Shown: piece after piece, positions 1 to 46,616 of the stretch | Numbering within the stretch: position 1 is the first letter of the stretch | Layout: each line of letters starts with the position of its first letter | Sequence record: OV696614 | Source: Escherichia phage Cyrano | Direction: 5' to 3' (one strand) | DNA: 64,000 bases | Program-made: the position numbers and the translations under genes | Notes under the pieces: generated by a model | The model's database searches: none | Told to the model about the DNA's origin: nothing | What the model saw: the letters and a program-made list of their open reading frames with translations, nothing else

Positions 1-866
1 ATATTGATTTAGGAGGATGTCCAATCAGCCGCTATCGCATCGTTCCTGAAGGCAACCAGCTCTTCGACAAATATATTGAAAAGCATCTTTCGTCAGGTGT
101 TTCGTCGACGCTGGCAAAAGACCTGGAGCGAGCAATAGCAAGCAGAAACAGAGTTCAGTTTATACCGGGCCAGCGTCGGGGGCGCATTCATGGTTCTAGT
201 ATCTACAGATTAGCAATGAATGATGATCGCGTGTTTCGTAAAAAAGAAGAATCTAAAGCCGTTAACGCCTGTGTTCAACAAGTGATTGATTTATCAGGTT
301 CAATGAGGGGTATAACGATACAATTGGCTCTTGCAAGTGCATATACCATCGCCGATGCCCTTGATCGAATAAATGTTCCCAACATTATCACCGGCTTCAC
401 TACATTTGGTAGTCATATGGCGGCAGGAGAACTTAAGGCTGTCAAGTATGAGTTCTCTCGCTTTGAATCTTTAATGCTACCTATCATCAAAAATTGGAAT
501 GAAAAGGTAAATTCTCGCGAAGTTCGCTCACGTATGGGGTGCGTAGGCTACACATTCCCACTTCTTAATAACGTGGATGGTGAAAGCATAGCCAGCCTTG
601 CATCGTTATTTTCCGGTCGCATGGAGGACAGGAAGATCATGCTTGTTCTGAGCGATGGCGAGCCGTGGGCTGTTGGGAGAGGTTTTGACGCTCATTTGCG
701 TTCGGTTGCGAAGCAAATTGAAACGCAGACTGACATTGATTTGATGGCAATTGGCATCATGACTGACGCACCGGAGAGATTTTACTCAAATCATGCCCTG
801 GTAACGAGCGTTGATAGTCTTGGTTCATCTGTAGTTACTGAACTATCTCGTATCATTTTAAAGTGA
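1..866 (+). CDS. vWA-domain protein, CobT-like, 5' end truncated by window edge
   Basis: Frame is open from the window start (no stop before listed ATG at 216). MIDAS-like DLSGSM motif and vWA-like MLVLSDGEPW. Immediately precedes an AAA+ ATPase, as in CobS/CobT or MoxR/vWA pairs. Confidence 0.6.
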   Translation, partial: IDLGGCPISRYRIVPEGNQLFDKYIEKHLSSGVSSTLAKDLERAIASRNRVQFIPGQRRGRIHGSSIYRLAMNDDRVFRKKEESKAVNACVQQVIDLSGSMRGITIQLALASAYTIADALDRINVPNIITGFTTFGSHMAAGELKAVKYEFSRFESLMLPIIKNWNEKVNSREVRSRMGCVGYTFPLLNNVDGESIASLASLFSGRMEDRKIMLVLSDGEPWAVGRGFDAHLRSVAKQIETQTDIDLMAIGIMTDAPERFYSNHALVTSVDSLGSSVVTELSRIILK

Positions 867-961
867 ACAAAACAGCCTTAACGATAAGTAACCACTTACG
901 ATAGATAATGATATATTTATATAAGAAGTTGAACGCTCATTAGAAAACAAAGGAAAAACGC

Positions 962-2197
962 ATGACTACTACTGCACTGCAAAATGAAAAAAATCCTTCT
1001 GATTACCTTGTTTGCAAGTGGTGCGGAAAATCATTTCACTATTTTAAGTCCCATGTAGCCAATGGTAATTGCGAGGGCATTCCTGAGTCAGTAAAAGATG
1101 CCGATCCTGACACCGTACTGAAAATGTACACAACACAGTTTCCAGATGAGCCAACGCTATCGAAAAAGGCACTTGATGCAATTCAAGCTAAACGTGCCGA
1201 GCAAAAAAGCGAAATGGCCAAATCATCTGGCGTGACCAGTAGCCCAGGCTACACAGGCACAGTTGAGTACAAGACAGATCTGGTCGCAGCTCACGAACTG
1301 CTAAATGTAACGGTGAAAGAACTCGGAACAAAACGTGGGACGCCGCTCATGGTTAGCGTCAACGTCAATACGCCGTTTCCAGAGTTCGTTCCAGAAGTGA
1401 AGAAGGGCTACGTATATGGCGACTTCGAACTGATCAAAGACATTTTCATGATGCTTGAACTTGGCATACCTGGCTATTTGTGGGGTCATGCAGGAACAGG
1501 CAAATCGTCATTGCCTACACAACTATGTGCTTTGCTCAATCGTCCGTTGATCCGTGCCCAACATACAGCATCAATGGAAGAGGCACATGTTACGGGGCAA
1601 ATTCTGGCGCGTGATGGCTCTACGTATTTCGAGCCTGGCTTGCTTGCGCTCGCAATGAAGCATGGCTGGGTTTACCTCGCGGATGAATACGACTTTGCGT
1701 TTCCACAGATTCTTGGCGTGTATCAGCCAGTGCTGGAAGGTGAAGCGTTGGTCATCAAAGAGGCGACTCCAGAATGGCGTCGCATTACTCCGCATGAACG
1801 GTTTGCTTTCATTGGCACTGGCAACACGAACGGATCTGGTGATGAAACCGGCTTGTACCAGGGTACAAACATCCAGAACGCCGCGAACTTTTCGCGTTTT
1901 GGCATCGTTTCGAATGTGAAATACATGAGCAAAGAGGCAGAGATCAACATGTTGATAAATGCCGGTATCGTGGATGAATACGCAGAAAAGATGGTTAAGT
2001 TTGCCGGTATCGTTCGCGATGGATACGAAGAACACCTTATCAGTCAGCCAATTGGCCCTCGTGAACTTTTGTTGTCGGCCAAGATTGGAATGATGCGAGG
2101 CGACTTTGTGACAGGTATTGAGCGTTCTTTCATTAACAAACTCCCTTCAGCTTCTGCACAAGCGGCTCGTGAAGTTGTTCAAAAAATATTTGGTTGA
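962..2197 (+). CDS. AAA+ ATPase, CobS/MoxR-like
   Basis: Walker A GHAGTGKSS and Walker B VYLADEYD; N-terminal Cys/His cluster (CKWCGKSFHYFKSH); paired with upstream vWA protein. Confidence 0.65.
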   Translation: MTTTALQNEKNPSDYLVCKWCGKSFHYFKSHVANGNCEGIPESVKDADPDTVLKMYTTQFPDEPTLSKKALDAIQAKRAEQKSEMAKSSGVTSSPGYTGTVEYKTDLVAAHELLNVTVKELGTKRGTPLMVSVNVNTPFPEFVPEVKKGYVYGDFELIKDIFMMLELGIPGYLWGHAGTGKSSLPTQLCALLNRPLIRAQHTASMEEAHVTGQILARDGSTYFEPGLLALAMKHGWVYLADEYDFAFPQILGVYQPVLEGEALVIKEATPEWRRITPHERFAFIGTGNTNGSGDETGLYQGTNIQNAANFSRFGIVSNVKYMSKEAEINMLINAGIVDEYAEKMVKFAGIVRDGYEEHLISQPIGPRELLLSAKIGMMRGDFVTGIERSFINKLPSASAQAAREVVQKIFG

Positions 2198-2403
2198 TCG
2201 TGCGTAAAGGATGTTTCGGCTCTCTTATCGCTGCTTCTGAAACTGGTAAGGCTTGTCTGGTATGTCCAGACAAGCCCGATTGTCACCAATCAGCAAAAGA
2301 AGTTGCGATTTCGATGTATGGGAAGTTCGTAGGCTTCCCCAATGACAAAATCAAAAAAACCATAAAGGTAAAAACACATGAAAGCACTGATGGTTCGAAC
2401 TGA
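2194..2403 (+). CDS. small Cys-rich ORF (hypothetical)
   Basis: 69-codon ORF with TTG/GTG start overlapping the upstream stop; four Cys in a C-x13-CxxC-x5-C pattern; overlaps start of the polymerase gene. Weak support. Confidence 0.2.
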   Translation: MIVRKGCFGSLIAASETGKACLVCPDKPDCHQSAKEVAISMYGKFVGFPNDKIKKTIKVKTHESTDGSN

Positions 2404-5400
2404 CTTCTCACTTGGGGAGTCGGCTCTAAAAGCAGAAAACGCGGTGAAGATTGCCAGAGAAGCTGGCTACACCGCTGTAATTTCAGCAGATAGCATGAAT
2501 ATTGCGAGTGTTATTCCACTACAACGTGCCGCTGGTGACGACATGGCGGTTATTTGTGGTGTGAAACTAAATATCGTTGATGATCCCACATACGAGCACC
2601 GGGCTAAACTTGCTAAAGAATCTATGAGATGTATGGAATCATTAGAGCGGGGACGTAACTACTCGTTTACCGCTCTAATTAAAAATGAGCAAGGATATCG
2701 CGACATCTGCGAACTAATGACGGCGGCCAACACACGAGAACAGTTCTACTTTGTACCGCGTCTCTCGCTCGAACAGTTGGTTTCTACATATGCCAAAGGC
2801 AACATCATCCTGCTTACTTCCGACATCGGTAGCGTGTTCCAACGCAACGATTTTGCAAAAATCATAAGCACACTGATTACAGCGGGTGGAAAAGACAACT
2901 TCTATAGTGTGGTTTATCCGCACCCTACCCCATTCTACGACCAGATTAACGTCCGGGCGATGAAAGTCGCCAGCGCATTGAAAATAGAGCCAGTGGCGTT
3001 CTATCCCGCTTATTACGAATCGATCGACGATGCAGACATTAAAGACATTGCGCACATGGTTACGAACAACATCAAAATCGACCAGCCGCATCGTCTGCGT
3101 ATCCCCCACCAGCGAGATAACGCCATCAATGGTCGTCGCCATCTCCTTGAGGCGCTTAAAGCCTTCTCCGTTCGCATGGATGTGCCGGTAACAGCTGCAA
3201 TGGCCTCAACAACGCAGGACTCCATTATCGATGCCTGCACATGGCGCTGGCATGAATTGCCACCAGCACTGCCCAAGATGGCAGACGACGAACCTGCAAC
3301 GCTGATGAAACTGGCTGTTGCAGGGCTGCGTAAACGTCTTACCACAAAAGAGTTTGGATACACACCACCTGCTTCTGAGAACAGGGTTTATGTTGAGCGG
3401 CTAAAGTACGAAATGGACACGCTGACTCGCCTGGGATTCTGTGGTTACTTCCTGATGGTACGCGATCTGATGAATCACAGCCGTGAAACTGGCATTCCTG
3501 TCGGGCCTGGTCGTGGTTCCTCTGCCGGTTCTCTGGTGGCGTGGTGCATAGGCATAACCAACGTCGACCCAATCCGTCACGGTCTTCTGTTTGAGCGTTT
3601 CATCAACCCTGAGCGTCTCGACTTGCCGGATGCGGACTTGGACTTCAGCCAGGCACGTCGCCATGAGGTGATCGAGTATCTGAATGAACGCTACGGCGAA
3701 GATTACGTTGCAGGCATTCCGAACTTCACCTATCTGGGCGCGGCATCTGCACTACGTGACACCGCTCGTATTTATGGTGTGGAGTCCGCAGATATGGCGG
3801 TATCAAAAGAACTGAAGAACGTCGAGGATGATAGCCTTCCATTGGAAGAGCTGCGCGAACAACTGGCAAGTCTCGACAAATACGCAACAAAATATCCTGA
3901 TGCATTCAATGCAGCCTGCAAGTTACAAAGCCTTATGCGTGGCTTTGGTAGACATGCGGCAGGGATGATCGTAGCAGGTGTTCCTCTGACAGAACGTACA
4001 CCGGTTGAGCGCCGTGGTGACGCGCGTTGTATCGCATTTGACAAGCGTTACTGCGAGGCTATGGGCCTAATTAAGCTGGACGTGCTTGGCCTGGCAACTC
4101 TCGATTTGCTCGATAGTGCAAAACGCTACATCAAAGAGAGTACCGGGGAAGACATCAATCTCGACGCTATCCCACTGGACGATCGCAAGGTTCTGGATGG
4201 GTTCGCTGCAGGGTACACGCAGGGCGTATTCCAGCTGGAGTCCGGCCCCATGCGTAAGTTGCTTAAAGATCTGGGCGGTGGCATCGAGCCAATGAGCTTC
4301 AAGACCGTTGTCGCCACGACCGCACTCTTCCGACCAGGCCCGATCCAATCCGGCATGTTGGACGACTATGTCTCCGTGGCCAAAGGCTTCATGGCTCCAC
4401 ATTCAATTCATCCGCGTCTTGAGGAAGTCACCCGGGAGACTAATGGTGTTTTGCTCTATCAGGAACAAATCATGCAAAGTTCCCGAGTACTTGCCGGGTT
4501 CTCTATGGCCGAAGCAGACGCTCTGCGTTCCGCTATCGGTAAAAAGAACATGGATAAGATGAAAGCGATCGGCAGCGATTTTGTAGAACGAGCACAAGCA
4601 GGCTGGGTGACACTGTCACTCAAAAATGGAGGTACTGTAGAGGTTCACAAACACGCAAAACTGGATTGCTCAGACGGTAAGCGTAGAAGCTACAGCGAGG
4701 CTATTAGTGACGGCATAGACTACGTGGAGATCGTCTCTGAACAAGAAGGTCTCAGTAAGGAAAAAGCCCAAGAAATATGGGACGCCTTTGAGAAGTTCGG
4801 TGGATATGCCTTCAACAAATCACACAGTGTTGCTTATTCTTTAATCAGTTATCAGTCTATGTGGCTAAAGACGCACTACCCTGCTGAGTTCTTCGCAGCT
4901 GCGCTCACCATTCTGGGCGAGGATAAGCATCAGGGGCTGGTGAAGGATGCGCTGACCTATGGCATTCGCGTATTGCCACCAGACGTTAATGTGTCATCTA
5001 ACCGAATTGAGATCCGCACACTCGAAGACGGCAGTCAGGCACTGTATGCGCCATTCTCTGCTGTGAAAGGCTGTTCTGAAAATGGTTGTCAGGCAATTAT
5101 GCGTGCGCGTGAGAAAGTTGGTGGCAAATTCGAGTCAGTGGCACAATTCGATGAAGCGGTCGAGAAGCGTGCATGTAACAGTCGTGTACGCGAGTCGCTT
5201 CATAAAGTAGGGGCTTTTGCGTCAATTGAGCCAGGCAGTCTGCCAGCAACTGATCCTGAACGACTGCGCGACCAGGCTGAGCTGATGGGCAATCTCATCA
5301 TTGACGCTGTTAAAGCATCACGTCCGTTCGAAATGAATCCTAAGCGTTCTGCCGAAATCAACGTACTCATGACACGTATGGCGGCTGAAATGGGCTTGGG

Positions 5401-5884
5401 TGAGGAGTTGATACGCCCGACTATTGGTATTAAACCCAAAATCATGATCATTCTGGACAATGCGAACGGCAATGACGCTCGTACCGGCTACTTCATGGAG
5501 AACGGATACGACGACTTTAAGGCAAAACTACTGACAGTTGGAGATCTGCGCATGGGCGATCTTTATGTCACGGGTGTTTGTAAGAAGGTTAAGGACAAAG
5601 AGAAAGACTATACCAAAGACGAGATAGGCCAGTTCACAGACTTTATGCGGGAAGAAATTAATCTTGTACGACCAACCTACATTTTGACGTGTGGTAGTCG
5701 TTCAACCGCACTATTTAACAATAAGAGTAAACCATCAGATCTGATTGGTCGTAAGGAGTACTTCCCAGAGCTTGATGCAACCGTCTTCTACGGATTTAAC
5801 CCGAATATCCTGTACTTCCGACCGGAAGAAGGAGAGCGACTGGAGGCCATTCTGGCTGATATCGCGGAGACAATAAATAAGTAA
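2378..5884 (+). CDS. dnaE: DNA polymerase III alpha-subunit-like replicative polymerase (DnaE family)
   Basis: 1168 aa. Conserved Pol IIIα palm region GFCGYFLMVRDL...GPGRGSSAGSLVAWCIGITNVDP...FERFINPER. N-terminal PHP-like region lacks the usual His residues. About 200 aa C-terminal extension of unclear fold. Confidence 0.85.
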   Translation: MKALMVRTDFSLGESALKAENAVKIAREAGYTAVISADSMNIASVIPLQRAAGDDMAVICGVKLNIVDDPTYEHRAKLAKESMRCMESLERGRNYSFTALIKNEQGYRDICELMTAANTREQFYFVPRLSLEQLVSTYAKGNIILLTSDIGSVFQRNDFAKIISTLITAGGKDNFYSVVYPHPTPFYDQINVRAMKVASALKIEPVAFYPAYYESIDDADIKDIAHMVTNNIKIDQPHRLRIPHQRDNAINGRRHLLEALKAFSVRMDVPVTAAMASTTQDSIIDACTWRWHELPPALPKMADDEPATLMKLAVAGLRKRLTTKEFGYTPPASENRVYVERLKYEMDTLTRLGFCGYFLMVRDLMNHSRETGIPVGPGRGSSAGSLVAWCIGITNVDPIRHGLLFERFINPERLDLPDADLDFSQARRHEVIEYLNERYGEDYVAGIPNFTYLGAASALRDTARIYGVESADMAVSKELKNVEDDSLPLEELREQLASLDKYATKYPDAFNAACKLQSLMRGFGRHAAGMIVAGVPLTERTPVERRGDARCIAFDKRYCEAMGLIKLDVLGLATLDLLDSAKRYIKESTGEDINLDAIPLDDRKVLDGFAAGYTQGVFQLESGPMRKLLKDLGGGIEPMSFKTVVATTALFRPGPIQSGMLDDYVSVAKGFMAPHSIHPRLEEVTRETNGVLLYQEQIMQSSRVLAGFSMAEADALRSAIGKKNMDKMKAIGSDFVERAQAGWVTLSLKNGGTVEVHKHAKLDCSDGKRRSYSEAISDGIDYVEIVSEQEGLSKEKAQEIWDAFEKFGGYAFNKSHSVAYSLISYQSMWLKTHYPAEFFAAALTILGEDKHQGLVKDALTYGIRVLPPDVNVSSNRIEIRTLEDGSQALYAPFSAVKGCSENGCQAIMRAREKVGGKFESVAQFDEAVEKRACNSRVRESLHKVGAFASIEPGSLPATDPERLRDQAELMGNLIIDAVKASRPFEMNPKRSAEINVLMTRMAAEMGLGEELIRPTIGIKPKIMIILDNANGNDARTGYFMENGYDDFKAKLLTVGDLRMGDLYVTGVCKKVKDKEKDYTKDEIGQFTDFMREEINLVRPTYILTCGSRSTALFNNKSKPSDLIGRKEYFPELDATVFYGFNPNILYFRPEEGERLEAILADIAETINK

Positions 5885-8383: not shown

Positions 8384-9412
8384 ATGTCTAAGACATTACT
8401 TGATTTGCTTAACAAAACTCGTGAAGACATTGCCGCCAAACGTGGCAACAACGTTGATCTGACTCGCTTAAAAGACGGCGTCAACTATATCCGCATCTTC
8501 CCGAATAAAGACGACCCAAACGGTAAGTTCTTCCAGACTTTCGGTATGCACTACGTTAAGTATCAGAACGAGGAAGGTAAAGAAGCAACCAACGCTTATA
8601 TTTGTGAGCAACATACTCACGGTCGCGCTTGTCAGCTATGCGAAATGGTGATGGAAGGTCGCGCTCGTCACAAGGGTAACAAAGCAATGGAAGAACGCAT
8701 CGGTCAAATGCGTGCCACTCCTCGCTACCTGGTCAACGGCATTCTTTCTGCTCGTGAGGATTTCGCAGATGCTGAGAAATGCCAGTTAATCGAGCTGCCG
8801 TCTACTGTATTCGATGATATCTGCAAAGCAATCACCGAAGACATCGCTGATGATATCGGCAATCCACTGAGCAAAGAGGAAGGCTACGCATTCCTGATTA
8901 AACGTACTGGCTCTGGTCGCGATACCAAATATGACGTCTCGCCTAAGCGTAAAGTCTACAAAGGCGATATCGAAGATAAATTCTGGAACACCCAGCATGA
9001 TCTGATCGCATACGCAAATCAGGCTGATGAAACTCGTCTTCTGTCGACAGTTCGCACTATGGGTCGTCTGATTGGCATCGCTGCACCAACTGCCGCAGCA
9101 TCTGCACCAGCAATTTCCTCAACCGCGAAAACATCGGCTGCGGCACTACCTGGATTTGGCTCTGTCACTGGTCATACAGAAGGAGCGACGGCTGTAGCAA
9201 CCGCGCACACACCGGCTTCTGAACCAACCAGTCTGGTTGATGAAGAAATCCTCCGTGCCGTTGAAACTGAATTTAAACCAGAGGCAAGTTCCGCTGCCGT
9301 TGCCGTATCAGTCAAAGAGTCTGAAGCAGTCGCAGCGACATCTGTAGCAACCGCATCTGCGACGGAAGATGAAGGTCTGGATGACCTACTGAGAGAGCTG
9401 GACTCTCTGTAA
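8384..9412 (+). CDS. single-stranded DNA-binding protein, T4 gp32-like
   Basis: IRIFPNKDDPNGKFFQ resembles the gp32 N-terminus; zinc-ligand pattern CEQHTH...CQLC; acidic C-terminal tail (DEGLDDLLRELDSL); RBS GGAG upstream. Confidence 0.8.
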   Translation: MSKTLLDLLNKTREDIAAKRGNNVDLTRLKDGVNYIRIFPNKDDPNGKFFQTFGMHYVKYQNEEGKEATNAYICEQHTHGRACQLCEMVMEGRARHKGNKAMEERIGQMRATPRYLVNGILSAREDFADAEKCQLIELPSTVFDDICKAITEDIADDIGNPLSKEEGYAFLIKRTGSGRDTKYDVSPKRKVYKGDIEDKFWNTQHDLIAYANQADETRLLSTVRTMGRLIGIAAPTAAASAPAISSTAKTSAAALPGFGSVTGHTEGATAVATAHTPASEPTSLVDEEILRAVETEFKPEASSAAVAVSVKESEAVAATSVATASATEDEGLDDLLRELDSL

Positions 9413-9430
9413 TCCCATTACGTGACCAGT

Positions 9431-9457
9431 AAGGCGTCTACGGACGCCTTACTTTTT
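9431..9457 (+). terminator. rho-independent terminator (AGGCGTC...GACGCCTT family)
   Basis: Hairpin AAGGCGTC-TACG-GACGCCTT followed by TTTTT; same stem sequence recurs at 13031 and 14170. Confidence 0.6.
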
Positions 9458-9472
9458 GGAAGGAATGTACCG

Positions 9473-10417
9473 GTGAATTATCTCTTCGTAGATGGCAATA
9501 GCCTGGGTTATTACCACCAACAATCTGACAAATTGCACAACGGCGAAATGGAAGTACAGGCTGCTTTCGGCTTTGTTAAGAACGTCCGTCGTTATGCCTC
9601 CATCCTCCATGCCCGACCTATGATTCTTTGGGATGGATTTAGTGACAAGCGTCGCGACTTTTACCCGGACTACAAGGCAAATCGCGACGACGATCCTGAT
9701 ATGAAAAAGATGAAGGAAGGCTTTGCTATCCAGAAGCCATACATCCTCAAAATGATGACCGCGCTTGGAGTTACCCAACTCATTGCAAAAGATGCAGAAG
9801 CGGATGATCTGGCCGGGCTGCTGGTATCCCGCATGGCACCGCAGCCAACCGTTGAACACATCTATCTGTTAACAGGCGATAGCGACTGGCTTCAGTTAGT
9901 TCGTGAAAACGTAAGCTGGGTAAGCCTGCGTGAAGACGCCAAAAACAAGCAGGTTAATTTTGAGCAATTTGCGGAGCTGACAGGATTCGCTACTCCTCGC
10001 GCATTTTTGGAAGCAAAAGCATTACAAGGCGATAAATCGGACAACATTAGCGGTGTTGGTGGCATTGGTGCTGGCGGTGCGAAAGAGCTGCTGCATGAAT
10101 GGGGAAGTGTCGCAACGATGGTACGCGGCATCAACGACGGCTCAATCGTGGTTGACAAAGGACGCCATAAGACCGCCTTCAACAAACTAGCGAAGAATGC
10201 CTTCAACGAGAAAACAGGCTGTCGAATGCTCGAAGCGTTCAAGAGAAACATCACGCTAATGAACCTGATTGAGACGAAGTTTCCGCCTACCGAAATCGAA
10301 ACAATCAAAGGCAATCGTGACGTGAAAGCATTCGAGCAACTGTGCTACGAGCTGAATTTCCGTTCGTTCCTTGAAGACCTTGAAGTGTTTGTTCTTCCAT
10401 TCGAAAGGTATTGCTAA
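9473..10417 (+). CDS. 5'-3' exonuclease / flap endonuclease (RNase H-like, FEN family)
   Basis: LFVDGNSLGYY N-terminal motif, EADDLAGLL, LTGDSDWLQLV, and H3TH-like GVGGIGAGGAKELL. Start set at GTG 9473 because the listed 9422 start lies inside the upstream terminator hairpin. Confidence 0.8.
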   Translation: MNYLFVDGNSLGYYHQQSDKLHNGEMEVQAAFGFVKNVRRYASILHARPMILWDGFSDKRRDFYPDYKANRDDDPDMKKMKEGFAIQKPYILKMMTALGVTQLIAKDAEADDLAGLLVSRMAPQPTVEHIYLLTGDSDWLQLVRENVSWVSLREDAKNKQVNFEQFAELTGFATPRAFLEAKALQGDKSDNISGVGGIGAGGAKELLHEWGSVATMVRGINDGSIVVDKGRHKTAFNKLAKNAFNEKTGCRMLEAFKRNITLMNLIETKFPPTEIETIKGNRDVKAFEQLCYELNFRSFLEDLEVFVLPFERYC

Positions 10418-10685: not shown

Positions 10686-13025
10686 ATGGCAAAAGGAAAA
10701 TCCGCACTGGCACTTGCTCTGAAAAAGAAAATCGGTAGCAACGACGAAATTCAGAAAGTAACTCATTGGATTGACACAGGCTTTCCTCCGTTAAACAAAG
10801 CTATTTCCGGTCGTTACGATGGCGGTTTCCCATGTGGTCGTATCGTAGAAGTATTCGGGCCACCAAGCGCGGGGAAATGTGTTACCGCAGACACCATGCT
10901 GCTGACGGAGCGTGGAATGGTAACAGTGAAAGAACTGTTTGAGATTGAGGGGCACAAAGCAACATGCACTACTCGCGATGTAGAGCATAACGTTGGACTC
11001 ATCAATGAAAATGGCGTGATAGAGAAGACCTCACACCTGACATGGAACAACCGTCGCAAATTCAAGCGTATTAAGCTGGCATCAGGCGGTTATATCGAGG
11101 CTACGTTCCGTCACCCAATCCGTGTGGTTGACGACTTAGGTAATGTCGTCTGGCGACATGCTGAAAAAATCAGTGTAGGCGACACGATTCCTTCAATGGT
11201 TGGCACACATCAATTCGGCGATCAGCACCTGGATGCCAATATCGCAAAACTGATGGGCTATTTAATTGCTGACGGATACGTGGCCTCTGAAAATTCAGTG
11301 AATTTTTCTAACACAGATCCTTTCATCAAGGATGAGTACTACCGCCTCATTTCGCTGGTATCAGACAAGATGCCAGTTACGAGAAAACATAACGGCTCGG
11401 AAGACCATGTGCTGTTTAGCAAAGAGGTGCGTTCGCTGCTTTTTAAAGAGTATGGTCTGGAGTATGAGAAAGCTGCTGGCAAGCAGGTTCCGTTGAGTGT
11501 GCGTCGCGCCAATAGCGAGGCTCAAATTGCATTCCTTCGCGGCTACTTTGAGCTGGAATGCCACGTCAATGATGGTCGCTGCATTGAGGTTGTGAGCGCG
11601 AGTGGGCTGCTGCTACAGCAAATTCGCCTCATGCTCCTGAATCTGGGGATTACGTCAACTATCTCTGAAAAACACGTCGCGGGTTATGAAAATACATATT
11701 ACCGGCTGTCATTCAGTGGCTCTAATTACGACCTTTTTCTGTCAACGATTGGTTTCGAATCTCCGGCACGTTTATCAGTGGCAACCAAACGGGACATTGG
11801 TTTTGACCGCACTTACTCAGGCTATGTTCCGCACATCAGCGGCTTAGTGAAATCACTCTACGAGTCGCTCACCAAGACCACCCGTGAAGACTACGCTCTG
11901 GTAGACCACGTTATTGGCCGCGGCGATCGTGTCGGAATAGACAAACTGCGAGAAATCTATGTCTCCTTCATTGGCAGAAAGAATCGTTTTAACGAGCATC
12001 TGTTTGCACAACTGGCAGCGGTAATTGGCTCTAACTTGTTCTACGACGAAGTCGTGGCTATTGAGGAAGGTGAAGCACCAACGTTCGACGTAGCGATGCC
12101 GGAAACACACTCTTTCTGGTCTAACGGGATTATCAGCCACAACACATTCCTTGCAACAGCAGCGATGATCTCCGCTCAAAAACAAGATGGTCTGGCGGTA
12201 TTCCTCGATCATGAAAACAGTTTTGACGTTGGCCTGGCTGTAGCCAATGGCCTGAACGCAGATGAGGATGACGGTCAGTGGGTATACAAGCAGCCAGATA
12301 CCTTCGAAGACTCTGTAGAGTTGATCGGCACAATACTTAAATTGGTTCGTGATGAAGAGCTTATCCCCGAATCAGCACCTATCTGTATCGTGGCTGACTC
12401 TCTTGCGTCTATGGTTCCGAACTCCAAAGCCGAGAAGTTCGAAAAGATGGCTGAAGGCACTGCCAAAGACAAAGATCAGCTAAACATGAACGACAATACG
12501 GCACTGGCTCGTGCGACGAGTGCGAACTTCCCTACTCTGGCTTTGTGGGCACGCAAATACAACGCCTGCATCATCTTCTTGAATCAGGTTCGCACAAAAA
12601 TCGGTGTAATGTTTGGCGACCCTACTACGTCGCCAGGTGGAGATTCACCGAAGTTTTACGCTTCTGTGCGCATCCGTCTCGGTGCATCGGTGATGAAGGA
12701 TGGGAAAGAGAAGATCGGCCAGGACGTAGGCGCAGAATGCATCAAAAACAAAGTTGCACCACCGTATGGCAAATGCACCTGGAAATTCTACTTCGATCCT
12801 ACTCGTGGCCTCGACGTTATCGAGTCGCTCGTCGAGTACATGCTGGAAGAAGGATACCTGCCAAAGAACGCCAGCGGGCGAGTTGAAATTGGTGACAAGA
12901 AATACACCAAATCGCAGATCGTCGACATGTATCGGGAGAAGCCATTAGCAGAAATCATTGCTGCGTTACAGGCGATAGATGACCGACGAGAGAAGACATC
13001 ACCAACAGAAGAACTAGAAGATTAA
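10686..13025 (+). CDS. recA: RecA-family recombinase interrupted by an intein
   Basis: N-extein GRIVEVFGPPSAGK and C-extein TFLATAAMISAQ rebuild a RecA-like P-loop (GPPSAGKT). C-extein contains IFLNQVRTKIGVMFGDPTTSPGGDSPKFYASVRIR, very close to the RecA L2 region. Exteins total about 357 aa. Confidence 0.85.
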   Translation: MAKGKSALALALKKKIGSNDEIQKVTHWIDTGFPPLNKAISGRYDGGFPCGRIVEVFGPPSAGKCVTADTMLLTERGMVTVKELFEIEGHKATCTTRDVEHNVGLINENGVIEKTSHLTWNNRRKFKRIKLASGGYIEATFRHPIRVVDDLGNVVWRHAEKISVGDTIPSMVGTHQFGDQHLDANIAKLMGYLIADGYVASENSVNFSNTDPFIKDEYYRLISLVSDKMPVTRKHNGSEDHVLFSKEVRSLLFKEYGLEYEKAAGKQVPLSVRRANSEAQIAFLRGYFELECHVNDGRCIEVVSASGLLLQQIRLMLLNLGITSTISEKHVAGYENTYYRLSFSGSNYDLFLSTIGFESPARLSVATKRDIGFDRTYSGYVPHISGLVKSLYESLTKTTREDYALVDHVIGRGDRVGIDKLREIYVSFIGRKNRFNEHLFAQLAAVIGSNLFYDEVVAIEEGEAPTFDVAMPETHSFWSNGIISHNTFLATAAMISAQKQDGLAVFLDHENSFDVGLAVANGLNADEDDGQWVYKQPDTFEDSVELIGTILKLVRDEELIPESAPICIVADSLASMVPNSKAEKFEKMAEGTAKDKDQLNMNDNTALARATSANFPTLALWARKYNACIIFLNQVRTKIGVMFGDPTTSPGGDSPKFYASVRIRLGASVMKDGKEKIGQDVGAECIKNKVAPPYGKCTWKFYFDPTRGLDVIESLVEYMLEEGYLPKNASGRVEIGDKKYTKSQIVDMYREKPLAEIIAALQAIDDRREKTSPTEELED
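10878..12143 (+). mobile_element. intein with double-motif LAGLIDADG homing endonuclease, inserted in the RecA P-loop
   Basis: In-frame 422-aa insert starting with Cys (CVTADTML) and ending in His-Asn (IISHN) before Thr+1; LAGLIDADG-type motifs LMGYLIADGYV and FLRGYFELECHV. Confidence 0.75.
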
Positions 13026-16253: not shown

Positions 16254-17309
16254 CTATTTGCGAGTCTTTGCCTTGCGCAACTCTTCGAGAAGCGCCAGTT
16301 CTTCTTTACTCAACATGACCATTTTGCCTTCTTTTTCGTCAGGCACAACGTCGATAATGTCATCTTGATTCTCATCTGGGAGGCTATATTCCGTCTCATC
16401 ATTATCGATTTTTGTTGATATTTGTGCCTGGCGTAACTTTGGCCGCCTATAGTGGATGACGAAGTAGACCGAGTTTCCGCGCTTAACTTCCGTGTAATCG
16501 AGATATCCTATCTCTCGCAGCTGTTCCATAGCCTTTCTTACCGTCGCATTCTGAGTAATAGTGCGACTTGTCAGATTAAGTCTGGCGCGTAAACGGGCTA
16601 GTGATATTGGTGCCGGATCAGGCGGCAAACTTTCAATAAAAGTATAAAGCGCCTGAGCGGATTCTTTTCTTGAGAGTTCGTTTATAGCCCGGAGTTGCAG
16701 AAGAACCTTTTTGTCGAACTGGTAGAGTTCGAAAATCTTGGGATCTGCTTTCAGTTCGACCGTATCGTGCTTGACACTATATTTTGCCGTTTGCACAAGA
16801 TGCGTTACGTAAAACTCATCAGAGCCTTTGCTACGGAACGAGATGGTATTTGTGGCAATACGGCTTAGCGAACTGTCCAGGCGTTTGCGTAACTTCGCTG
16901 ATGACCTGGCGGTCGGAATGCCACACAGCCTTACAAACTCAACGAACGGCAACGTGACAGTATCGCCAACGACCTTGTGTTTGGCAAACGCGTGGATTAT
17001 TCCCACCCACGTTTTAAAGTCGTTATCCATATCAAGCCGAAGGCCAGAGATCCTTATGTCTTCGTACCCTTCGGCTTTTGCCAGAGACAGCTGTTTGAGT
17101 TCAGCAGAGGCATCCATAGAGACCATTTGCCCCTTTCTTCCTCTGGATGTCGATTTCAGCGTCGGAACGAAGAGGCCCAGACGCATCAAAGCAACAGGCT
17201 GAACAGTGTTATTAGTGTTAGGAACCAACGTAACAACTTCGCCTGTCTTTTTATCTGTTTCTGAAAATGCTTCAACGATCGCTATGTTTTTATTGCCGTT
17301 TTCGCTCAT
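16254..17309 (-). CDS. repA: iteron-binding replication initiator (RepA/Rep_3-like)
   Basis: 351 aa flanked on both sides by iteron arrays; C-terminal half has a winged-helix-like pattern typical of Rep_3 initiators (…ALYTFIESL…[12 protein letters not shown]…[19 protein letters not shown]…). Confidence 0.65.
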
Positions 17310-28250: not shown

Positions 28251-29354
28251 GTGTCACTCCTTTTGAATCGAGAGCATACGAACGGTCAGGTAACAAACGC
28301 ATCGTATGCAAAAGTTATTGAGACGGTGCTTAAAAGCGGCGTGCAGGCTGATGATCGCACAGGCACTGGCACTTTAAGCACCTGCTACGTTCCCTCTTAC
28401 TACATGCTTACTGGTGGGACTGTGCCGCTTATTTCTGGAAAGGCGGTAAATCTTAAGCCACTACTTGTCGAACTTGAGTGGTATCTGAAAGGCACGGGCA
28501 ACATCCAATTTCTCAAGGATAACGGCGTTAAGATTTGGGATGCATGGGCCGATGAGAATGGCGATTTGGGGCCGGTTTACGGTAAGCAGTGGCGTCGATG
28601 GGAAGATACCCGCATCGTGAGCCATAGTGAATATCTGAGCAAGATCGCTACTTTCCGTGAACGCGGGTACAAAGTCGAGGGATACCTGGGTATCAGTGAA
28701 GATCGCGTAGTGCTGTCCCGTGAAATCGATCAGCTACAGCGTATTGTCGATACACTGCGCACGAACCCTACCGATCGTCGCATCATGCTTAACGCATGGA
28801 ACGTAGGCGAGCTTGAGGATATGAAACTGCCACCTTGCCACTTTGTCTTCTCTTTGTGGAGTCGTGAGCTGGATTTTGAAACCCGTTTAACGATGGCAAC
28901 TGACATTGGTCTTCAACACAGTCGCCTCGGTTACGAGTCTATCTACACCAAGATGCTATACGATCTGGAGATGGACGGCAGTGTTACTGAAGCTGAACTG
29001 GATGAACTTGGAATCCCCAAACGCATCCTCAACTCCTGCCTCGTACAGCGTAGCGTAGACACTTTTGTTGGTATGCCATTCAATATTGCTGGCTATGGCA
29101 TTCTCACTCATTTTCTCGCGAAGATTACGGGTCACATGGCCGGTGCATTTGTGCATTTTGGCTTTGACGTGCATTTGTACAACAACCACATGGAAGGTGT
29201 GTGTGAGCTAATGAAACGACAGGCTCCAGAGCATTCAGATCCGGTCGTTATTTTCCCTCATGAATGGTCAGAGTTGGATGATTTCAAATGGGACGAGGTT
29301 TTAATTCTTGGCTATGACCCTCTACCGTGGATCAAGGTTCCAGTGGCGGTGTGA
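28251..29354 (+). CDS. thyA: thymidylate synthase with two internal insertions
   Basis: DRTGTGTLS, IWDAWADENGDLGPVYGKQWRRW, DRRIMLNAWNVGELEDMKLPPCHF and MPFNIAGY match ThyA active-site blocks; 367 aa versus about 264 in E. coli, so insertions are present. GTG start. Confidence 0.85.
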   Translation: MSLLLNREHTNGQVTNASYAKVIETVLKSGVQADDRTGTGTLSTCYVPSYYMLTGGTVPLISGKAVNLKPLLVELEWYLKGTGNIQFLKDNGVKIWDAWADENGDLGPVYGKQWRRWEDTRIVSHSEYLSKIATFRERGYKVEGYLGISEDRVVLSREIDQLQRIVDTLRTNPTDRRIMLNAWNVGELEDMKLPPCHFVFSLWSRELDFETRLTMATDIGLQHSRLGYESIYTKMLYDLEMDGSVTEAELDELGIPKRILNSCLVQRSVDTFVGMPFNIAGYGILTHFLAKITGHMAGAFVHFGFDVHLYNNHMEGVCELMKRQAPEHSDPVVIFPHEWSELDDFKWDEVLILGYDPLPWIKVPVAV

Positions 29355-31376: not shown

Positions 31377-31934
31377 ATGACAACGATTGTTGCAGGCATC
31401 GATATCGAGTCTACGGGACTGGATTTCCTTGCTGGTCATAAAATTATTGAAATCGCAATTACCCGCTATGAACTGGAGACACAGAGACATATTGATAGTC
31501 TGGAGATGCGTTTTAACCCTCGCAGAAACATAGATCCGAAAGCTCAAGCCGTTCATGGCATTTCATTAGAACAGCTGGCAGCTGAACCTTTGTTGTCAAA
31601 TCATGCCAGCGAAATTGGCGCTTATATGGAGGCATGTAGTGCGTGGGTTGCTCATAACGGCGAAGCATTTGATATACCATTTATTAGACACGAGTTTTCA
31701 GGGTATGGAGTAAGACTGCCAGACGTTCCCGTTATAGATACTATGTTATCGGGATTGTGGGCCACAGAAGACGGTAAACGTCCTCGTCTTGAAGAATTGG
31801 CCTTCTCTCTTGGCTTTATATACGATCATGCCAAAGCACATAGTGCCTTATATGACACAAACTTAATGATGCAATGCTTCTTTAAGGCACGTAATAAATA
31901 CGGATTTTTTAAATTACCCTCTGAAATTGTGTAA
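31377..31934 (+). CDS. DnaQ-like DEDDh 3'-5' exonuclease (putative proofreading subunit)
   Basis: Exo I GIDIESTGLD, Exo II WVAHNGEAFDIPFI, Exo III HSALYDT, in the canonical order. Confidence 0.7.
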   Translation: MTTIVAGIDIESTGLDFLAGHKIIEIAITRYELETQRHIDSLEMRFNPRRNIDPKAQAVHGISLEQLAAEPLLSNHASEIGAYMEACSAWVAHNGEAFDIPFIRHEFSGYGVRLPDVPVIDTMLSGLWATEDGKRPRLEELAFSLGFIYDHAKAHSALYDTNLMMQCFFKARNKYGFFKLPSEIV

Positions 31935-34098: not shown

Positions 34099-34681
34099 TA
34101 GATAAGTACAAACTATTTATAAAGTGAATTGTAAGTGCTAAGATCTGATAGTTTCCAGTCGTAGACTGGAGACTCGACCTGATGGGTGGGGGTAAGCGTC
34201 ACTGGCGTCAGGTTTAAAAAAGCTCACTACCAGCGTAGAACCGGCACCGTTTAGGGGTTGGGGAAGGGGGAACCAAAGTGGGCAGAGACAAGGGTCACTT
34301 TATGATTGTCGAGTCTGGAGTGTTTCGAGAGGTTGAATCCAGTACTCCCCTTCATAAAGTGTGGGAAGATCTCGGTTCTGGGGTGCTGTCATCCATAACT
34401 TCCCAAGCCTAAGCTGGCAGTAGACTTAGGTCATAACTTTTCAGGTTATGAAACGACCAGGTTGGTGAGGAAATTTTGTACTCACCTCCCTGGGAGAGTA
34501 TTACCTGAAAAGACAACCTCTCACTTCGTTCGAGGTGAACTTCACTCACTTCGTTCGTTCAGTTCAGGTTTATAAAAACCTGTTCTGGGAAGTAATTTGT
34601 TTATTTTAATAATTATTAACACGCACGCGTGTGCGCACGCGCGAGGAAAAAATCGGCGCGGCGCTTGATTCAGGAGTTTAT

Positions 34682-35275
34682 ATGACGACGAAGACACCAG
34701 CCCGATCGCAAGCAAAAACTCGCAAAAAAGCCAAAAACAAAAATTCTCCCCGCACCAATCCCACAACGTCTGTCGTAGAGTTCAATCCCCAGCTTAAAAC
34801 CGTGAAAATCTTCAGTGATGGCTCTTGCCTTAAAAATCCGGGTGGCCCGGGCGGTTACGGTATAGTTCTCCAGTATCGTGGTGAGGAACGCGAGTTCTCA
34901 GATGGTTTTCATAGCACCACCAATAACCGCATGGAGATGATGGGGGCACTTATCGGGCTGGAGCGTTTGAAATATCCATGCAACGTTATTTTGCACTCTG
35001 ATAGCCAGTATCTGAAAAACGGCATGACACTGTGGATGAAATGGTGGAAACGCAATGGATGGATGACTTCTGACAAAAAACCGGTAAAGAATGTTGATCT
35101 GTGGAAGCGTCTGGATGAGGCCGCAAGTCGACATAATGTTCGCTGGAAGTGGGTTAAAGGTCACGCCGGGCATCGTGAAAATGAAATATGTGATCGACTC
35201 GCGAAGATCGCAGCTTTTTCAGCAGCAGATATGCCTCACAAGAAAGATATTGGTTTTGTTTATAACAAGTGGTAA
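34682..35275 (+). CDS. rnhA: ribonuclease HI with basic N-terminal extension
   Basis: [17 protein letters not shown]...TNNRMEMMG...[41 protein letters not shown]...[20 protein letters not shown] closely tracks E. coli RNase HI. Start set at ATG 34682 (AGGAG RBS); the listed 34631 GTG lies inside a palindrome. Confidence 0.85.
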
Positions 35276-46459: not shown

Positions 46460-46616
46460 CCCGTCTCCTTTATTTTAATTTGCGCAATTGTCGCCTTGTA
46501 GTGTACTCCAGCTACGACATTTAATCATTTATGAGAAATGCTGTTATCACATGGCAGACATAAGGCCATTTTGTTACTATCAAGCCCCTTTTCACTACAA
46601 AGAAGTAATGCCTACT

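What the first reader, a model, noticed from the sequence alone, without database searches (positions are those of the whole stretch)
2378..5884. DnaE-like polymerase with degenerate PHP domain, extra C-terminal domain and a separate DnaQ-like exonuclease
The N-terminal PHP-like region lacks the metal-binding His residues of E. coli DnaE, the last about 200 aa do not resemble the usual tau/beta-binding tail, and proofreading is probably supplied by the DEDDh exonuclease at 31377-31934. Together with the gp32-like SSB and 5'-3' exonuclease this implies an element-encoded replisome built around a bacterial-type C-family polymerase.
Basis: partly seen in the sequence, partly recalled or inferred. 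Interest (0 to 1): 0.45.

Follow-up and report, generated by a model that had tools for sequence, protein, structure and literature searches.

The report
Phage-plasmid DnaE polymerase with UDG-like tail
This is the replicative DNA polymerase of an SSU5-type phage-plasmid of E. coli: a bacterial-type Pol III alpha whose built-in proofreading site is dead and whose usual tail is replaced by a degenerate uracil-DNA-glycosylase fold, an architecture already noted in the literature but never studied biochemically.

Summary
ORF 2378-5884 (+) encodes an 1168-aa C-family (DnaE-type) polymerase with the three palm aspartates intact. All nine PHP metal ligands are substituted. The OB fold and tau-binding tail are absent.

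The last ~195 aa are a family-4 uracil-DNA-glycosylase fold: Foldseek E 1.5e-10, TM 0.81 to 4zbx; family profile E 5e-23. The motifs are degenerate: GEAPG is LDNAN, HPS is FNPN, the uracil-reading Asn is Gly, and the Fe-S cysteines are lost.

A DEDDh DnaQ-like exonuclease (31377-31934), gp32-like SSB, FEN-type 5'-3' exonuclease and RNase H are present. Near-identical plasmids add a DnaB-like helicase, primase and ligase, but no clamp or clamp loader.

The window is an SSU5-like phage-plasmid; 244 of 5426 complete E. coli genomes carry the gene, always on plasmids. The PHP-Pol3-(HhH)2-UDG architecture was already described by Timinskas et al. 2014 for the Y. pestis and S. enterica copies, so the finding is correct but not new.

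Extra points:
- A 48-aa beta module (residues 742-790) marks a site where relatives are split in two genes, often with an HNH homing endonuclease between them.
- A conserved QAELM motif sits where E. coli alpha has its clamp-binding QADMF.

The parts
2378..5884 (+). dnaE-like gene: 1168-aa C-family DNA polymerase (PHP - Pol3 core - fingers - beta module - (HhH)2 - UDG-like)
   Evidence: PHROG phrog_405 'DNA polymerase' matches residues 4-1167. The gene is 99.3% identical in nucleotides to the PGAP-annotated 'dnaE' of plasmid pEC7518-111k.
2378..3247 (+). PHP domain (about residues 1-290), metal site abolished
   Evidence: Pfam PHP E 4.9e-13. All nine ligand positions are substituted. Folded with high confidence in the full-length model.
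3302..4597 (+). Polymerase core and fingers (residues 309-740), with catalytic D418, D420 and D568
   Evidence: Pfam DNA_pol3_alpha and DNA_pol3_finger. The three aspartates are invariant in 41/41 relatives.
4601..4747 (+). 48-aa insertion (residues 742-790): small beta module at the point where relatives are split into two genes
   Evidence: Absent from Taq and E. coli alpha and from 39 of 41 full-length relatives. Predicted as five strands plus a helix. Equals the tail of the N-half plus the head of the C-half in split relatives.
4748..5230 (+). End of fingers and (HhH)2 / beta-binding-domain equivalent (residues 791-951)
   Evidence: Pfam HHH_6 E 3.2e-16. Aligns to E. coli alpha 735-896.
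5261..5296 (+). Conserved R-L-R-D-Q-A-E-L-M-G-N-L (residues 962-973): candidate clamp-binding motif
   Evidence: R962 and Q966 are present in 38/41 relatives and L969 in 32/41. The position is analogous to E. coli QADMF 920-924, but it is not aligned by HMMER and is predicted helical.
5300..5884 (+). Family-4-UDG-like domain (residues 975-1168) replacing the OB fold and tau-binding CTD; coordinates include the stop codon
   Evidence: NCBIfam TIGR00758 E 2.6e-8, below its cut-off. Foldseek against 4zbx E 1.5e-10, TM 0.81. Family profile against 4zbx E 5.4e-23. Motif columns tabulated.
31377..31934 (+). DnaQ-like DEDDh 3'-5' exonuclease (185 aa), candidate trans-acting proofreader
   Evidence: Pfam RNase_T E 2.5e-21. 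E. coli epsilon E 9e-11 with catalytic residues aligned. phrog_192 'DNA polymerase exonuclease subunit'. Found on the same contigs as the polymerase in at least 31 close and 2 distant viral contigs.
8384..9412 (+). gp32-like single-strand DNA-binding protein
   Evidence: Pfam gp32 E 1.7e-66. Syntenic with the polymerase in distant relatives.
9422..10417 (+). FEN-type 5'-3' exonuclease
   Evidence: Pfam 5_3_exonuc_N and 5_3_exonuc. Syntenic in distant relatives.
34631..35275 (+). RNase HI
   Evidence: Pfam RNase_H E 8.4e-44.
962..2197 (+). CobS-like AAA_5 ATPase, conserved immediately upstream of the polymerase (role unknown)
   Evidence: Pfam AAA_5. Present next to the polymerase in most related loci.

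Best explanation
The gene encodes the catalytic subunit of the phage-plasmid's own replicase, probably the one used in lytic growth. It is an active DnaE-type polymerase.

Shown:
- The element is an SSU5-type phage-plasmid of about 110 kb.
- The polymerase active site is intact.
- The PHP domain has lost all metal ligands, so it cannot proofread and serves only as a structural domain.
- The OB fold and tau-binding tail are replaced by a domain descended from family-4 uracil-DNA glycosylase.
- That domain has lost the Fe-S cluster ligands, the uracil-recognising Asn, the stacking Phe and the motif-B His.

Inferred:
1. Proofreading is supplied in trans by the 185-aa DnaQ-like DEDDh exonuclease, as epsilon does for E. 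coli alpha.
2. The polymerase rides the host beta clamp through the Q-A-E-L-M motif, because the element encodes no clamp or clamp loader.
3. Lacking the tau-binding tail, it is not integrated into the host clamp-loader/helicase hub. It works instead with the element's own DnaB-like helicase, primase, gp32-like SSB, FEN, RNase H and ligase.
4. The UDG-like domain most likely acts without classical uracil excision, as a template-strand or DNA-handling or docking module. This would resemble the catalytically dead UDG domains of N4-like PolA, or the structural role of poxvirus D4/E4.

The 48-aa beta module at 742-790 is best read as the fused remnant of a two-gene split caused by a homing endonuclease.
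For: Identity of the element:
- 93% nucleotide identity to Escherichia phage CMS-2020a and 85% to Salmonella phage SSU5.
- The gene is on plasmids in 244 of 5426 complete E. coli genomes and never on a chromosome.
- Near-identical plasmids carry RepA together with phage tail genes.

Active polymerase:
- Pfam and PDB matches.
- D418, D420 and D568 are invariant in 41/41 relatives.
- NCBIfam TIGR00594 scores 653 bits against a cut-off of 434.

Dead PHP site: nine of nine ligand positions are substituted, and this holds across the family.

UDG descent and degeneration.
- Motif-A Glu is Asp in 89/96 family sequences.
- The Asn is never kept.
- The His is kept in 1/96.
- About 40/96 distant members keep CxxC plus a third Cys, which shows descent from a real Fe-S UDG.

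No OB or CTD: no Pfam hit, and the model shows only the alpha/beta UDG fold after residue 975.

Exonuclease: DEDDh residues intact, PHROG label 'DNA polymerase exonuclease subunit', and co-occurrence with the polymerase on contigs.

No clamp or clamp loader is annotated in the 99.3%-identical plasmid.

Clamp motif: conserved R..DQxEL(M/L)PGL. The resemblance to E. coli QADMF rests on established knowledge, also cited in PMC3201878.

Conserved module CobS - DnaE-UDG - gp32 - FEN in distant relatives.

Precedents for UDG-polymerase coupling: Kazlauskas & Venclovas 2011 and Missoury et al. 2025 preprint.
Against: - No experiment exists on this polymerase family.
- The exonuclease gene lies 25 kb away, in a nucleotide-metabolism cluster, and is never within 10 kb of the polymerase in 80 distant loci.
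- The exonuclease lacks the C-terminal alpha-binding segment of epsilon.
- The QAELM motif is predicted to lie in a helix with high confidence, and HMMER does not align it to QADMF. It may simply be part of the interdomain packing.
- The UDG-like domain is mildly acidic: pI 5.3 here, family median 6.2. That does not favour a general DNA-clamping role.
- Several pocket positions are almost invariant: D1027, Y1063, T1065, K1069, K1072, P1142. This would be unexpected for a mere spacer and leaves room for catalysis or specific ligand binding.
Confidence: 0.6

Rival explanations
1. The UDG-like domain is an active glycosylase, or a base-flipping sensor, with altered specificity. It would scan the template strand ahead of the polymerase and so couple base excision or stalling to replication, as shown for SP15-like PolA-UDG fusions and proposed for poxvirus polymerase-UDG complexes.
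For: - The fold is a complete family-4 UDG: TM 0.81 over all 192 residues of 4zbx.
- Pocket positions are strongly conserved across 96 family sequences: motif-A acidic residue D in 89/96, Y in 94/96, T in 95/96, K in 91/96, motif-B Pro in 94/96.
- Motif-B Asn-Pro resembles family-2 MUG, by my recollection; this was not tested here.
- Active UDG domains fused to phage PolA read dU ahead of the fork (preprint 10.1101/2025.03.26.645540).
- The element invests heavily in dNTP-pool control: RNR, thymidylate synthase, DHFR and a MazG-like NTP pyrophosphohydrolase.
Against: - The uracil-recognising Asn is absent in 96/96, the motif-B His in 95/96, and the stacking Phe is largely lost.
- In this protein even the motif-A Pro is Ala.
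- The score is far below the TIGR00758 cut-off: 33.8 against 125.3 bits.
- N4-like PolA shows that polymerase-fused UDG domains can persist after losing their catalytic residues.
Confidence: 0.25
2. The UDG-like domain is an intrinsic processivity factor or clamp substitute, so the polymerase works without any sliding clamp. This is the role proposed for UDG-like domains of T5/SPO1-type PolA and for vaccinia D4.
For: - The element has no clamp or clamp-loader genes.
- The OB fold, the usual DNA-binding element of the tail, is missing and is replaced by this domain.
- Kazlauskas & Venclovas 2011 proposed exactly this role for PolA-fused UDG-like domains.
Against: - The domain has net negative charge: pI 5.3, with only 35% of family members basic.
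- A conserved clamp-motif-like QxEL(M/L) precedes it.
- The host beta clamp is available in the cell.
Confidence: 0.2
3. The DnaQ-like exonuclease is not the polymerase's proofreader. It would have another role, such as recombination, end processing or nucleic-acid turnover, and the polymerase would replicate without proofreading or borrow host epsilon.
For: - The two genes are 25 kb apart and never adjacent in relatives.
- The protein lacks the alpha-binding tail of epsilon and falls below every NCBIfam epsilon cut-off.
- The DEDDh fold serves many functions.
Against: - Its best solved relative is epsilon.
- The family is confined to the same ~100-115-kb elements that carry the polymerase.
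- A conserved C-terminal GFFKLP peptide sits where epsilon carries its clamp-binding motif.
- A polymerase with a dead PHP site replicating a ~110-kb genome is expected to need a proofreader. This is an inference from the DnaE1/epsilon correlation discussed in PMC3919608.
Confidence: 0.25

Closest known systems
[quoted passage not shown]
   Same: The same protein family and the same architecture. That paper states that OB and CTD are replaced by an archaeal-type (family-4) UDG domain, PF03167, in an additional, non-chromosomal polymerase copy. The pHCM2/pMT1/SSU5 group is the lineage of this window.
   Different: Nothing essential. That paper gives one sentence on the variant. It does not comment on the state of the UDG motifs, the PHP ligands of this variant, the split forms or the phage-plasmid context.
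E. coli Pol III core (alpha-epsilon-theta) with beta clamp
   Same: A DnaE-type alpha with a non-catalytic PHP domain and a separate DEDDh exonuclease. An internal Q-A-(D/E)-(M/L)-(F/M) motif follows the (HhH)2 domain.
   Different: No OB fold or tau-binding CTD. All nine PHP ligands are lost, whereas I recall E. coli alpha keeping several (not tested here). The exonuclease lacks the alpha-binding tail of epsilon and its QTSMAF motif. No theta, tau/gamma complex or clamp is encoded. Scores fall below the DnaE1 and epsilon equivalog cut-offs.
UDG domains fused to phage A-family polymerases: SPO1-like and SP15-like (active, read dU ahead of the fork) and N4-like (catalytic residues lost)
   Same: A family-4-type UDG fold covalently joined to a replicative polymerase. 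Foldseek links this domain to the SP-15 polymerase and other PolA-UDG proteins. The degenerate state parallels the N4-like group.
   Different: The polymerase family differs (C, not A). The domain is C-terminal rather than N-terminal. Here it replaces OB and CTD.
Poxvirus replicase: B-family polymerase with UDG (vaccinia E9-A20-D4; mpox F8-A22-E4)
   Same: A UDG fold recruited as a stable part of a viral replicase. For vaccinia D4, in complex with A20, the cited role is to confer polymerase processivity (cited).
   Different: It acts in trans through a bridging protein, is a family-1-type active UDG, and belongs to a eukaryotic virus.
Genes fractured by free-standing homing endonucleases (Aeh1 nrdA, T4-like gp43) and 'fractured' DnaE with split inteins (Dassa et al. 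2009, PMC2677866)
   Same: Relatives of this gene are split into two ORFs at the position of residues ~780-790, often with an HNH endonuclease ORF between the halves.
   Different: There are no intein blocks: no Pfam intein or Hint hit, no Cys/Ser nucleophile and no HN motif, and the module is only ~57 aa. In this window the halves are fused in frame.

Membership tests
C-family DNA polymerase, DnaE type (Pol III alpha) | Pol-beta-like palm with three catalytic aspartates, thumb and fingers (Pfam DNA_pol3_alpha and DNA_pol3_finger) | tested here: met
   E 1.3e-73 and 2.7e-46. D418, D420 and D568 are invariant in 41/41 relatives. TIGR00594 scores 653 bits against a cut-off of 434.
C-family DNA polymerase, DnaE type (Pol III alpha) | N-terminal PHP domain and (HhH)2 domain (the conserved core PHP-Pol3-(HhH)2) | tested here: met
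   PHP E 4.9e-13 and HHH_6 E 3.2e-16.
DnaE1 (main bacterial replicase) | C-terminal OB fold followed by the tau-binding CTD | tested here: not met
   No Pfam or PDB match after residue ~950. Residues 975-1168 fold as a UDG. The NCBIfam DnaE1 equivalog NF004226 scores 700.5 bits against a cut-off of 1002.
DnaE2 / ImuC error-prone polymerase | Membership of the NF004225 subfamily | tested here: not met
   416 bits against a cut-off of 939, and lower than the DnaE1 models.
PHP-domain proofreading exonuclease | Nine metal-binding residues (HxH, D, H, E, H, C, D, H) | tested here: not met
   All nine are substituted: M5, R7, E14, S39, K63, F97, S148, P210, Y212.
Family-4 uracil-DNA glycosylase | alpha/beta UDG fold | tested here: met
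   Foldseek against 4zbx, 1l9g and 1ui0: E 1e-10 to 1e-9, target TM 0.74-0.81. Family profile against 4zbx E 5.4e-23.
Family-4 uracil-DNA glycosylase | Motif A GE(A/G)PG, the stacking Phe (GrPF), the uracil-specific Asn (TN) and motif B HPS | tested here: not met
   In this protein: LDNAN, no Phe, TG, FNPN. In the family: E->D in 89/96, Asn in 0/96, His in 1/96. TIGR00758 scores 33.8 bits against a cut-off of 125.3.
Family-4 uracil-DNA glycosylase | Four Cys ligands of the 4Fe-4S cluster | tested here: not met
   None of the four is present in this protein. About 40/96 distant relatives keep three (CxxC plus one).
Family-4 uracil-DNA glycosylase | Uracil excision activity | not testable with these tools
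   Needs an enzyme assay.
DnaQ / Pol III epsilon | DEDDh exonuclease motifs Exo I, II and III-epsilon | tested here: met
   D9 and E11 (DIESTG), D99 (HNGEAFD), H155 and D160 (HSALYD) align to epsilon D12, E14, D103, H162 and D167.
DnaQ / Pol III epsilon | C-terminal segment that binds the alpha PHP domain, and the clamp-binding QTSMAF motif | tested here: not met
   The protein ends at residue 185, about 15 residues after the exonuclease domain. A different conserved peptide, GFFKLP, occupies that position. All epsilon equivalog cut-offs are missed.
DnaQ / Pol III epsilon | Physical complex with the polymerase | not testable with these tools
   Only co-occurrence on contigs could be shown.
Split-intein 'fractured gene' (for the 742-790 module and the split relatives) | Hint-fold blocks A, B, F and G with the nucleophile and terminal HN | tested here: not met
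   No intein or Hint Pfam hit at E <= 10 for seven module sequences. There are only weak SH3-like hints (Myosin_N, E 0.002-0.07), and the module is ~57 aa.

The most novel reading that the evidence does not exclude
The C-terminal domain could be a repurposed family-4 UDG with a new, conserved pocket (D1027, Y1063, T1065, K1069, K1072, N1141-P1142). It would read or process the template strand ahead of a C-family polymerase. That would be the third independent union of a UDG fold with a replicase, after A-family phage polymerases and B-family poxvirus polymerases. The enzyme, together with a tail-less epsilon-like exonuclease, would form a minimal Pol III-like core that hijacks the host beta clamp without tau. 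In addition, the 742-790 beta module could be a self-assembling adaptor that spreads with an HNH homing endonuclease and lets the polymerase function as two polypeptides without an intein.
Probability: 0.2. Interest if true: 0.6.

Novelty: already known. Interest (0 to 1): 0.3.

Why it matters
These phage-plasmids are common in clinical Enterobacteriaceae: 4.5% of complete E. coli genomes here carry the gene. They also carry resistance genes such as dfrA51.

Their replicase is a compact, self-contained C-family system of polymerase plus a 185-aa exonuclease. It has no tau-binding tail, and the element encodes no clamp or clamp loader. It could serve as a tractable model for three questions:
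- How Pol III-type enzymes recruit proofreaders and clamps.
- Why UDG folds are repeatedly attached to viral replicases.
- How an essential polymerase tolerates being split by a homing endonuclease.

None of this has been tested biochemically. As a discovery, the architecture itself is already in the literature.

Tried and rejected
3. I looked for the DnaQ-like gene within +-10 kb of the polymerase in 80 distant viral loci and found none. Co-occurrence therefore had to be judged by shared contig names.
4. I tested the idea that the 742-790 module is a relic of a split intein. It resembles intein block A ('V-x-L-D-D-G-x-x-x-x-V') and the start of DnaE IntC ('MKIKSI'). There was no Pfam intein or Hint hit, no nucleophile and no HN, and the module is too short. 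The idea is rejected as unsupported.
5. I rejected a DnaE2-type error-prone polymerase on NCBIfam scores.
6. I considered that the metG/apbC region meant a chromosomal junction or a chimera. It does not: 89 E. coli records, the listed ones being ~107-111-kb plasmids, share the arrangement.
7. The literature searches found no experimental work on this polymerase.
The position of the UDG-like domain relative to the template path, and the contacts of the beta module, could not be examined.

Full report
**1. What is in the sequence**

The ORF 2378..5884 (+) is real and encodes 1168 aa. Pfam places four domains:
- PHP at 6-176 (E 4.9e-13)
- DNA_pol3_alpha at 309-571 (E 1.3e-73)
- the finger domain at 574-740 (E 2.7e-46)
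- HHH_6 at 862-951 (E 3.2e-16)

Nothing matches 952-1168. The closest solved proteins are Pol III alpha of Thermus aquaticus, M. tuberculosis and E. coli, with E 1e-127 to 1e-116.

NCBIfam puts the protein in the Pol III alpha superfamily (TIGR00594, 653 bits, cut-off 434). It falls below every equivalog cut-off: DnaE1 NF004226 scores 700 against 1002, and DnaE2 scores 416 against 939. These are not chance resemblances.

**2. The element**

The gene is 93% identical in nucleotides to Escherichia phage CMS-2020a and 85% to Salmonella phage SSU5 gene SSU5_052. In RefSeq complete E. coli genomes it occurs in 244 of 5426 genomes, always on plasmids of about 95-160 kb. PGAP names it 'dnaE: DNA polymerase III subunit alpha'.

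The 99.3%-identical plasmid pEC7518-111k carries the following:
- repA, parB-type genes and phage tail genes
- a DnaB-like helicase, a primase and an ATP-dependent ligase
- the '3'-5' exonuclease' and RNase HI
- nrdAB, thymidylate synthase and dfrA51

It carries no sliding clamp or clamp loader.

Inside the window I confirmed these genes:
- gp32-like SSB (8384-9412)
- FEN-type 5'-3' exonuclease (9422-10417)
- RecA (10686-13025)
- SbcCD-like proteins
- RNR
- a MazG-like NTP pyrophosphohydrolase
- thymidylate synthase
- DHFR
- Dam
- RNase H

The window is therefore part of an SSU5-type phage-plasmid with its own replication and nucleotide-metabolism module.

**3. PHP domain**

I aligned the N-terminus to M. 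tuberculosis DnaE1 (native numbering of 7pu7). Which nine residues are the ligands rests on established knowledge of that enzyme.

| M. tuberculosis ligand | Residue here |
|---|---|
| H14 | M5 |
| H16 | R7 |
| D23 | E14 |
| H48 | S39 |
| E73 | K63 |
| H107 | F97 |
| C158 | S148 |
| D226 | P210 |
| H228 | Y212 |

In an alignment of 41 full-length relatives, each representing a 50%-identity cluster, the same columns are dominated by G/N, R, E, T, R, P, G, P and L. The loss is therefore ancient and family-wide. The domain still folds confidently in the model.

The polymerase aspartates D418, D420 and D568 are invariant in all 41. The enzyme should polymerise but cannot proofread through PHP.

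**4. The C-terminal domain**

- Sequence: NCBIfam TIGR00758 (family-4 UDG) matches residues 1049-1164 at E 2.6e-8, far below its cut-off. Pfam UDG is marginal at E 0.015.
- Structure: an AlphaFold model of residues 775-1168, built on 39 sequences, has pLDDT 88.8. Foldseek against the PDB returns family-4 UDGs first. Sulfolobus tokodaii 4zbx scores E 1.5e-10 with target TM 0.81 over all 192 columns. Next come Thermotoga 1l9g/1vk2, Thermus 1ui0 and UdgX.
- Profile: a profile of 31 C-terminal domains hits 4zbx at E 5.4e-23 by sequence alone.
- Viral structures: the viral library links the domain to phage UDGs and to the UDG domains of PolA enzymes, including the SP-15 polymerase.

Motif columns across 96 family sequences:

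| Family-4 UDG feature | This protein | Family |
|---|---|---|
| Motif A GEAPG | LDNAN | mostly (T/F/L)-D-x-P-(N/T/S); Glu replaced by Asp in 89/96 |
| Stacking Phe of GrPF | lost | largely lost |
| Uracil-specific Asn of 'TN' | Gly | never kept |
| Motif B His | Asn | kept in 1/96 |
| Fe-S cysteines | all absent | about 40/96 distant members keep CxxC plus a third Cys |

The domain thus descends from a genuine Fe-S family-4 UDG and has lost the canonical catalytic apparatus.

Against a purely structural role, several pocket positions are nearly invariant: D1027, Y1063, T1065, K1069, K1072 and P1142. Against a general DNA-clamping role, the domain is mildly acidic (pI 5.3; family median 6.2).

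The OB fold and the tau-binding CTD are simply missing.

**5. Already known**

Timinskas et al. [quoted passage not shown] These are the pMT1/pHCM2 relatives of SSU5.

Other relevant literature:
- Kazlauskas & Venclovas (2011, PMC3201878) noted that viral C-family polymerases diverge after the fingers. They proposed UDG-like domains of PolA enzymes as intrinsic processivity factors, by analogy with vaccinia D4.
- A 2025 preprint (10.1101/2025.03.26.645540) shows that SP15-like PolA-UDG fusions excise dU ahead of the fork. It cites N4-like PolA as having lost the UDG catalytic residues.
- PHROGs groups the full-length protein as 'DNA polymerase' (phrog_405) and the DnaQ-like protein as 'DNA polymerase exonuclease subunit' (phrog_192).

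I found no experimental work on this polymerase.

**6. The exonuclease**

ORF 31377-31934 (185 aa) matches Pfam RNase_T at E 2.5e-21. Its best solved relative is E. coli epsilon (E 9e-11). D9/E11, D99 and H155/D160 align to epsilon D12/E14, D103 and H162/D167.

The protein stops about 15 residues after the exonuclease domain. It therefore lacks epsilon's clamp motif (QTSMAF) and its alpha-binding tail. Instead, homologues down to ~45% identity share a C-terminal G-F-F-K-L-P peptide at the position of QTSMAF.

Its homologues come from ~100-115-kb contigs of Escherichia, Salmonella, Klebsiella, Xenorhabdus, Morganella and others. In IMG/VR the exonuclease and the polymerase share at least 31 contigs among close relatives and 2 among distant ones.

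The two genes are never neighbours. A proofreading partnership is therefore plausible but not shown.

**7. Clamp use**

After the (HhH)2 domain there is a conserved stretch R962-L-R-D-Q966-A-E-L-M-G-N-L. R and Q are present in 38/41 relatives and L969 in 32/41. It lies 14 residues after the point that aligns to E. coli P893. E. coli carries its internal clamp-binding QADMF 27 residues after P893 (motif position from PMC3201878).

The pattern Q-A-E-L-M matches Q-A-D-M-F closely. However, HMMER does not align the two, and both models predict a helix here. Because the element has no clamp genes, I consider host beta-clamp use likely, at about even odds.

**8. An unreported feature: the 742-790 module and split relatives**

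Relative to Taq and E. coli alpha, the protein has a 48-aa insertion between the fingers helices. The full-length model (pLDDT 90, pTM 0.85) folds it as a small beta module: strands 743-748, 753-757, 761-763 and 769-771, helix 772-777, and strand 782-789.

- Of 41 full-length cluster representatives, only this protein and the SSU5-type 1172-aa form carry the insertion. The other 39 have a 16-18-residue linker.
- A search of 1.84 billion representative proteins with the C-terminal 224 aa found 139 clusters. About 44 are full-length proteins, and about 38 are 372-431-aa 'C-halves'. Most of the C-halves begin with MK(I/V)xx(I/V)..DG(M/L).
- In a Klebsiella contig the gene is split into a 790-aa N-half and a 386-aa C-half, 70 nt apart.
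- In an E. coli plasmid and in several of the six split viral loci, a ~245-265-aa HNH endonuclease ORF lies between the halves.
- The N-half tails share a conserved sequence ('IEVxLDDGTxxxVHR...DGxxRTVEEAxxxGVE'). Together with the C-half head they equal the insertion seen here.

The simplest reading is that a free-standing homing endonuclease fractured the gene, the two halves carry a beta-strand adaptor, and the SSU5 lineage re-fused them. The opposite order cannot be excluded.

Precedents exist: Aeh1 nrdA, T4-like gp43, and intein-containing fractured DnaE genes (PMC2677866). An intein origin of the module is not supported. PHROGs lists the C-half family (phrog_4335) as 'unknown function'.

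**9. Conserved neighbourhood**

The order CobS-like AAA_5 ATPase - (small ORF) - DnaE-UDG - (small ORF) - gp32 - FEN recurs in relatives whose polymerase is only ~39% identical to this one, and in most of 80 diverse viral loci. Many of these come from 85-120-kb contigs. This marks a broad clade of ~100-kb phages and phage-plasmids using this replicase. The role of the CobS/CobT pair is unexplained.

**10. Verdict**

The item is ordinary in the sense that the gene is annotated in hundreds of plasmids and its odd architecture was published in 2014.

What remains open, and worth a bench test:
- whether the degenerate UDG fold still senses or cuts anything
- whether the 185-aa exonuclease docks on the dead PHP domain
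- whether the host clamp is used
- how the split forms assemble

I rate interest at 0.3 and novelty as already known.

Noticed in passing
window 10686-13025 (+): The RecA gene is 779 aa because it carries an intein with a LAGLIDADG endonuclease (Pfam Intein_splicing 73-486, LAGLIDADG_3, RecA 484-703). SSU5 and Klebsiella relatives have an intein-less RecA of 355-358 aa. PGAP labels the whole ORF 'LAGLIDADG family homing endonuclease'.
   Followed up: partly
window 4601-4747; loci L004 (3558-7161), L005 (1501-5813), L179, L206, L207, L246: The polymerase gene is polymorphic at residues ~740-790. Forms seen: fused 1168-aa (here), fused 1172-aa (SSU5), two genes 70 nt apart (Klebsiella), and two genes with an HNH homing-endonuclease ORF between them. 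Split halves carry a conserved beta-strand adaptor that is present, fused, in this window.
   Followed up: yes
window 45359-48650: Copies of the chromosomal genes apbC/mrp (- strand) and metG (+ strand, methionyl-tRNA synthetase) sit inside the phage-plasmid. The same arrangement is found in 89 E. coli records; the listed ones are ~107-111-kb plasmids.
   Followed up: partly
window 216-2197: A CobT-like VWA protein (cut by the window start) and a CobS-like AAA_5 ATPase lie directly upstream of the polymerase. This synteny is conserved in relatives whose polymerase is only ~39% identical to this one. The link to replication is unexplained.
   Followed up: partly
window 31377-31934, residues 175-181: The DnaQ-like exonuclease and its homologues end in a conserved G-F-F-K-L-P peptide, located where E. 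coli epsilon has its clamp-binding QTSMAF motif. It may be a docking peptide for the clamp or the polymerase.
   Followed up: partly
window 29766-30242 (+): The dihydrofolate reductase corresponds to the gene PGAP names trimethoprim-resistant DfrA51 in the near-identical plasmid pEC7518-111k.
   Followed up: no
window 28251-29354 (+): The thymidylate synthase ORF is 367 aa, and Pfam matches it in two stretches, which suggests an insertion or an extended form. In pEC7518-111k the gene is interrupted by IS1203.
   Followed up: no
protein P0039 (1528 aa, distant relative; no locus fetched): A distant DnaE-UDG relative carries a full intein in the motif ADxLRK|C...HN|CMGKK, about 20 residues upstream of the split site. 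The cyanobacterial DnaE split-intein site (FAEY|CFNKSH, from memory) lies about 35 residues downstream. If so, three different mobile-element insertion points would fall within about 60 residues of the fingers domain.
   Followed up: partly
window 16254-17309 (-): A plasmid replication initiator repA lies within the window. It corresponds to RepA of pEC7518-111k. Its presence is consistent with host-replisome plasmid maintenance existing alongside the element's own polymerase.
   Followed up: no
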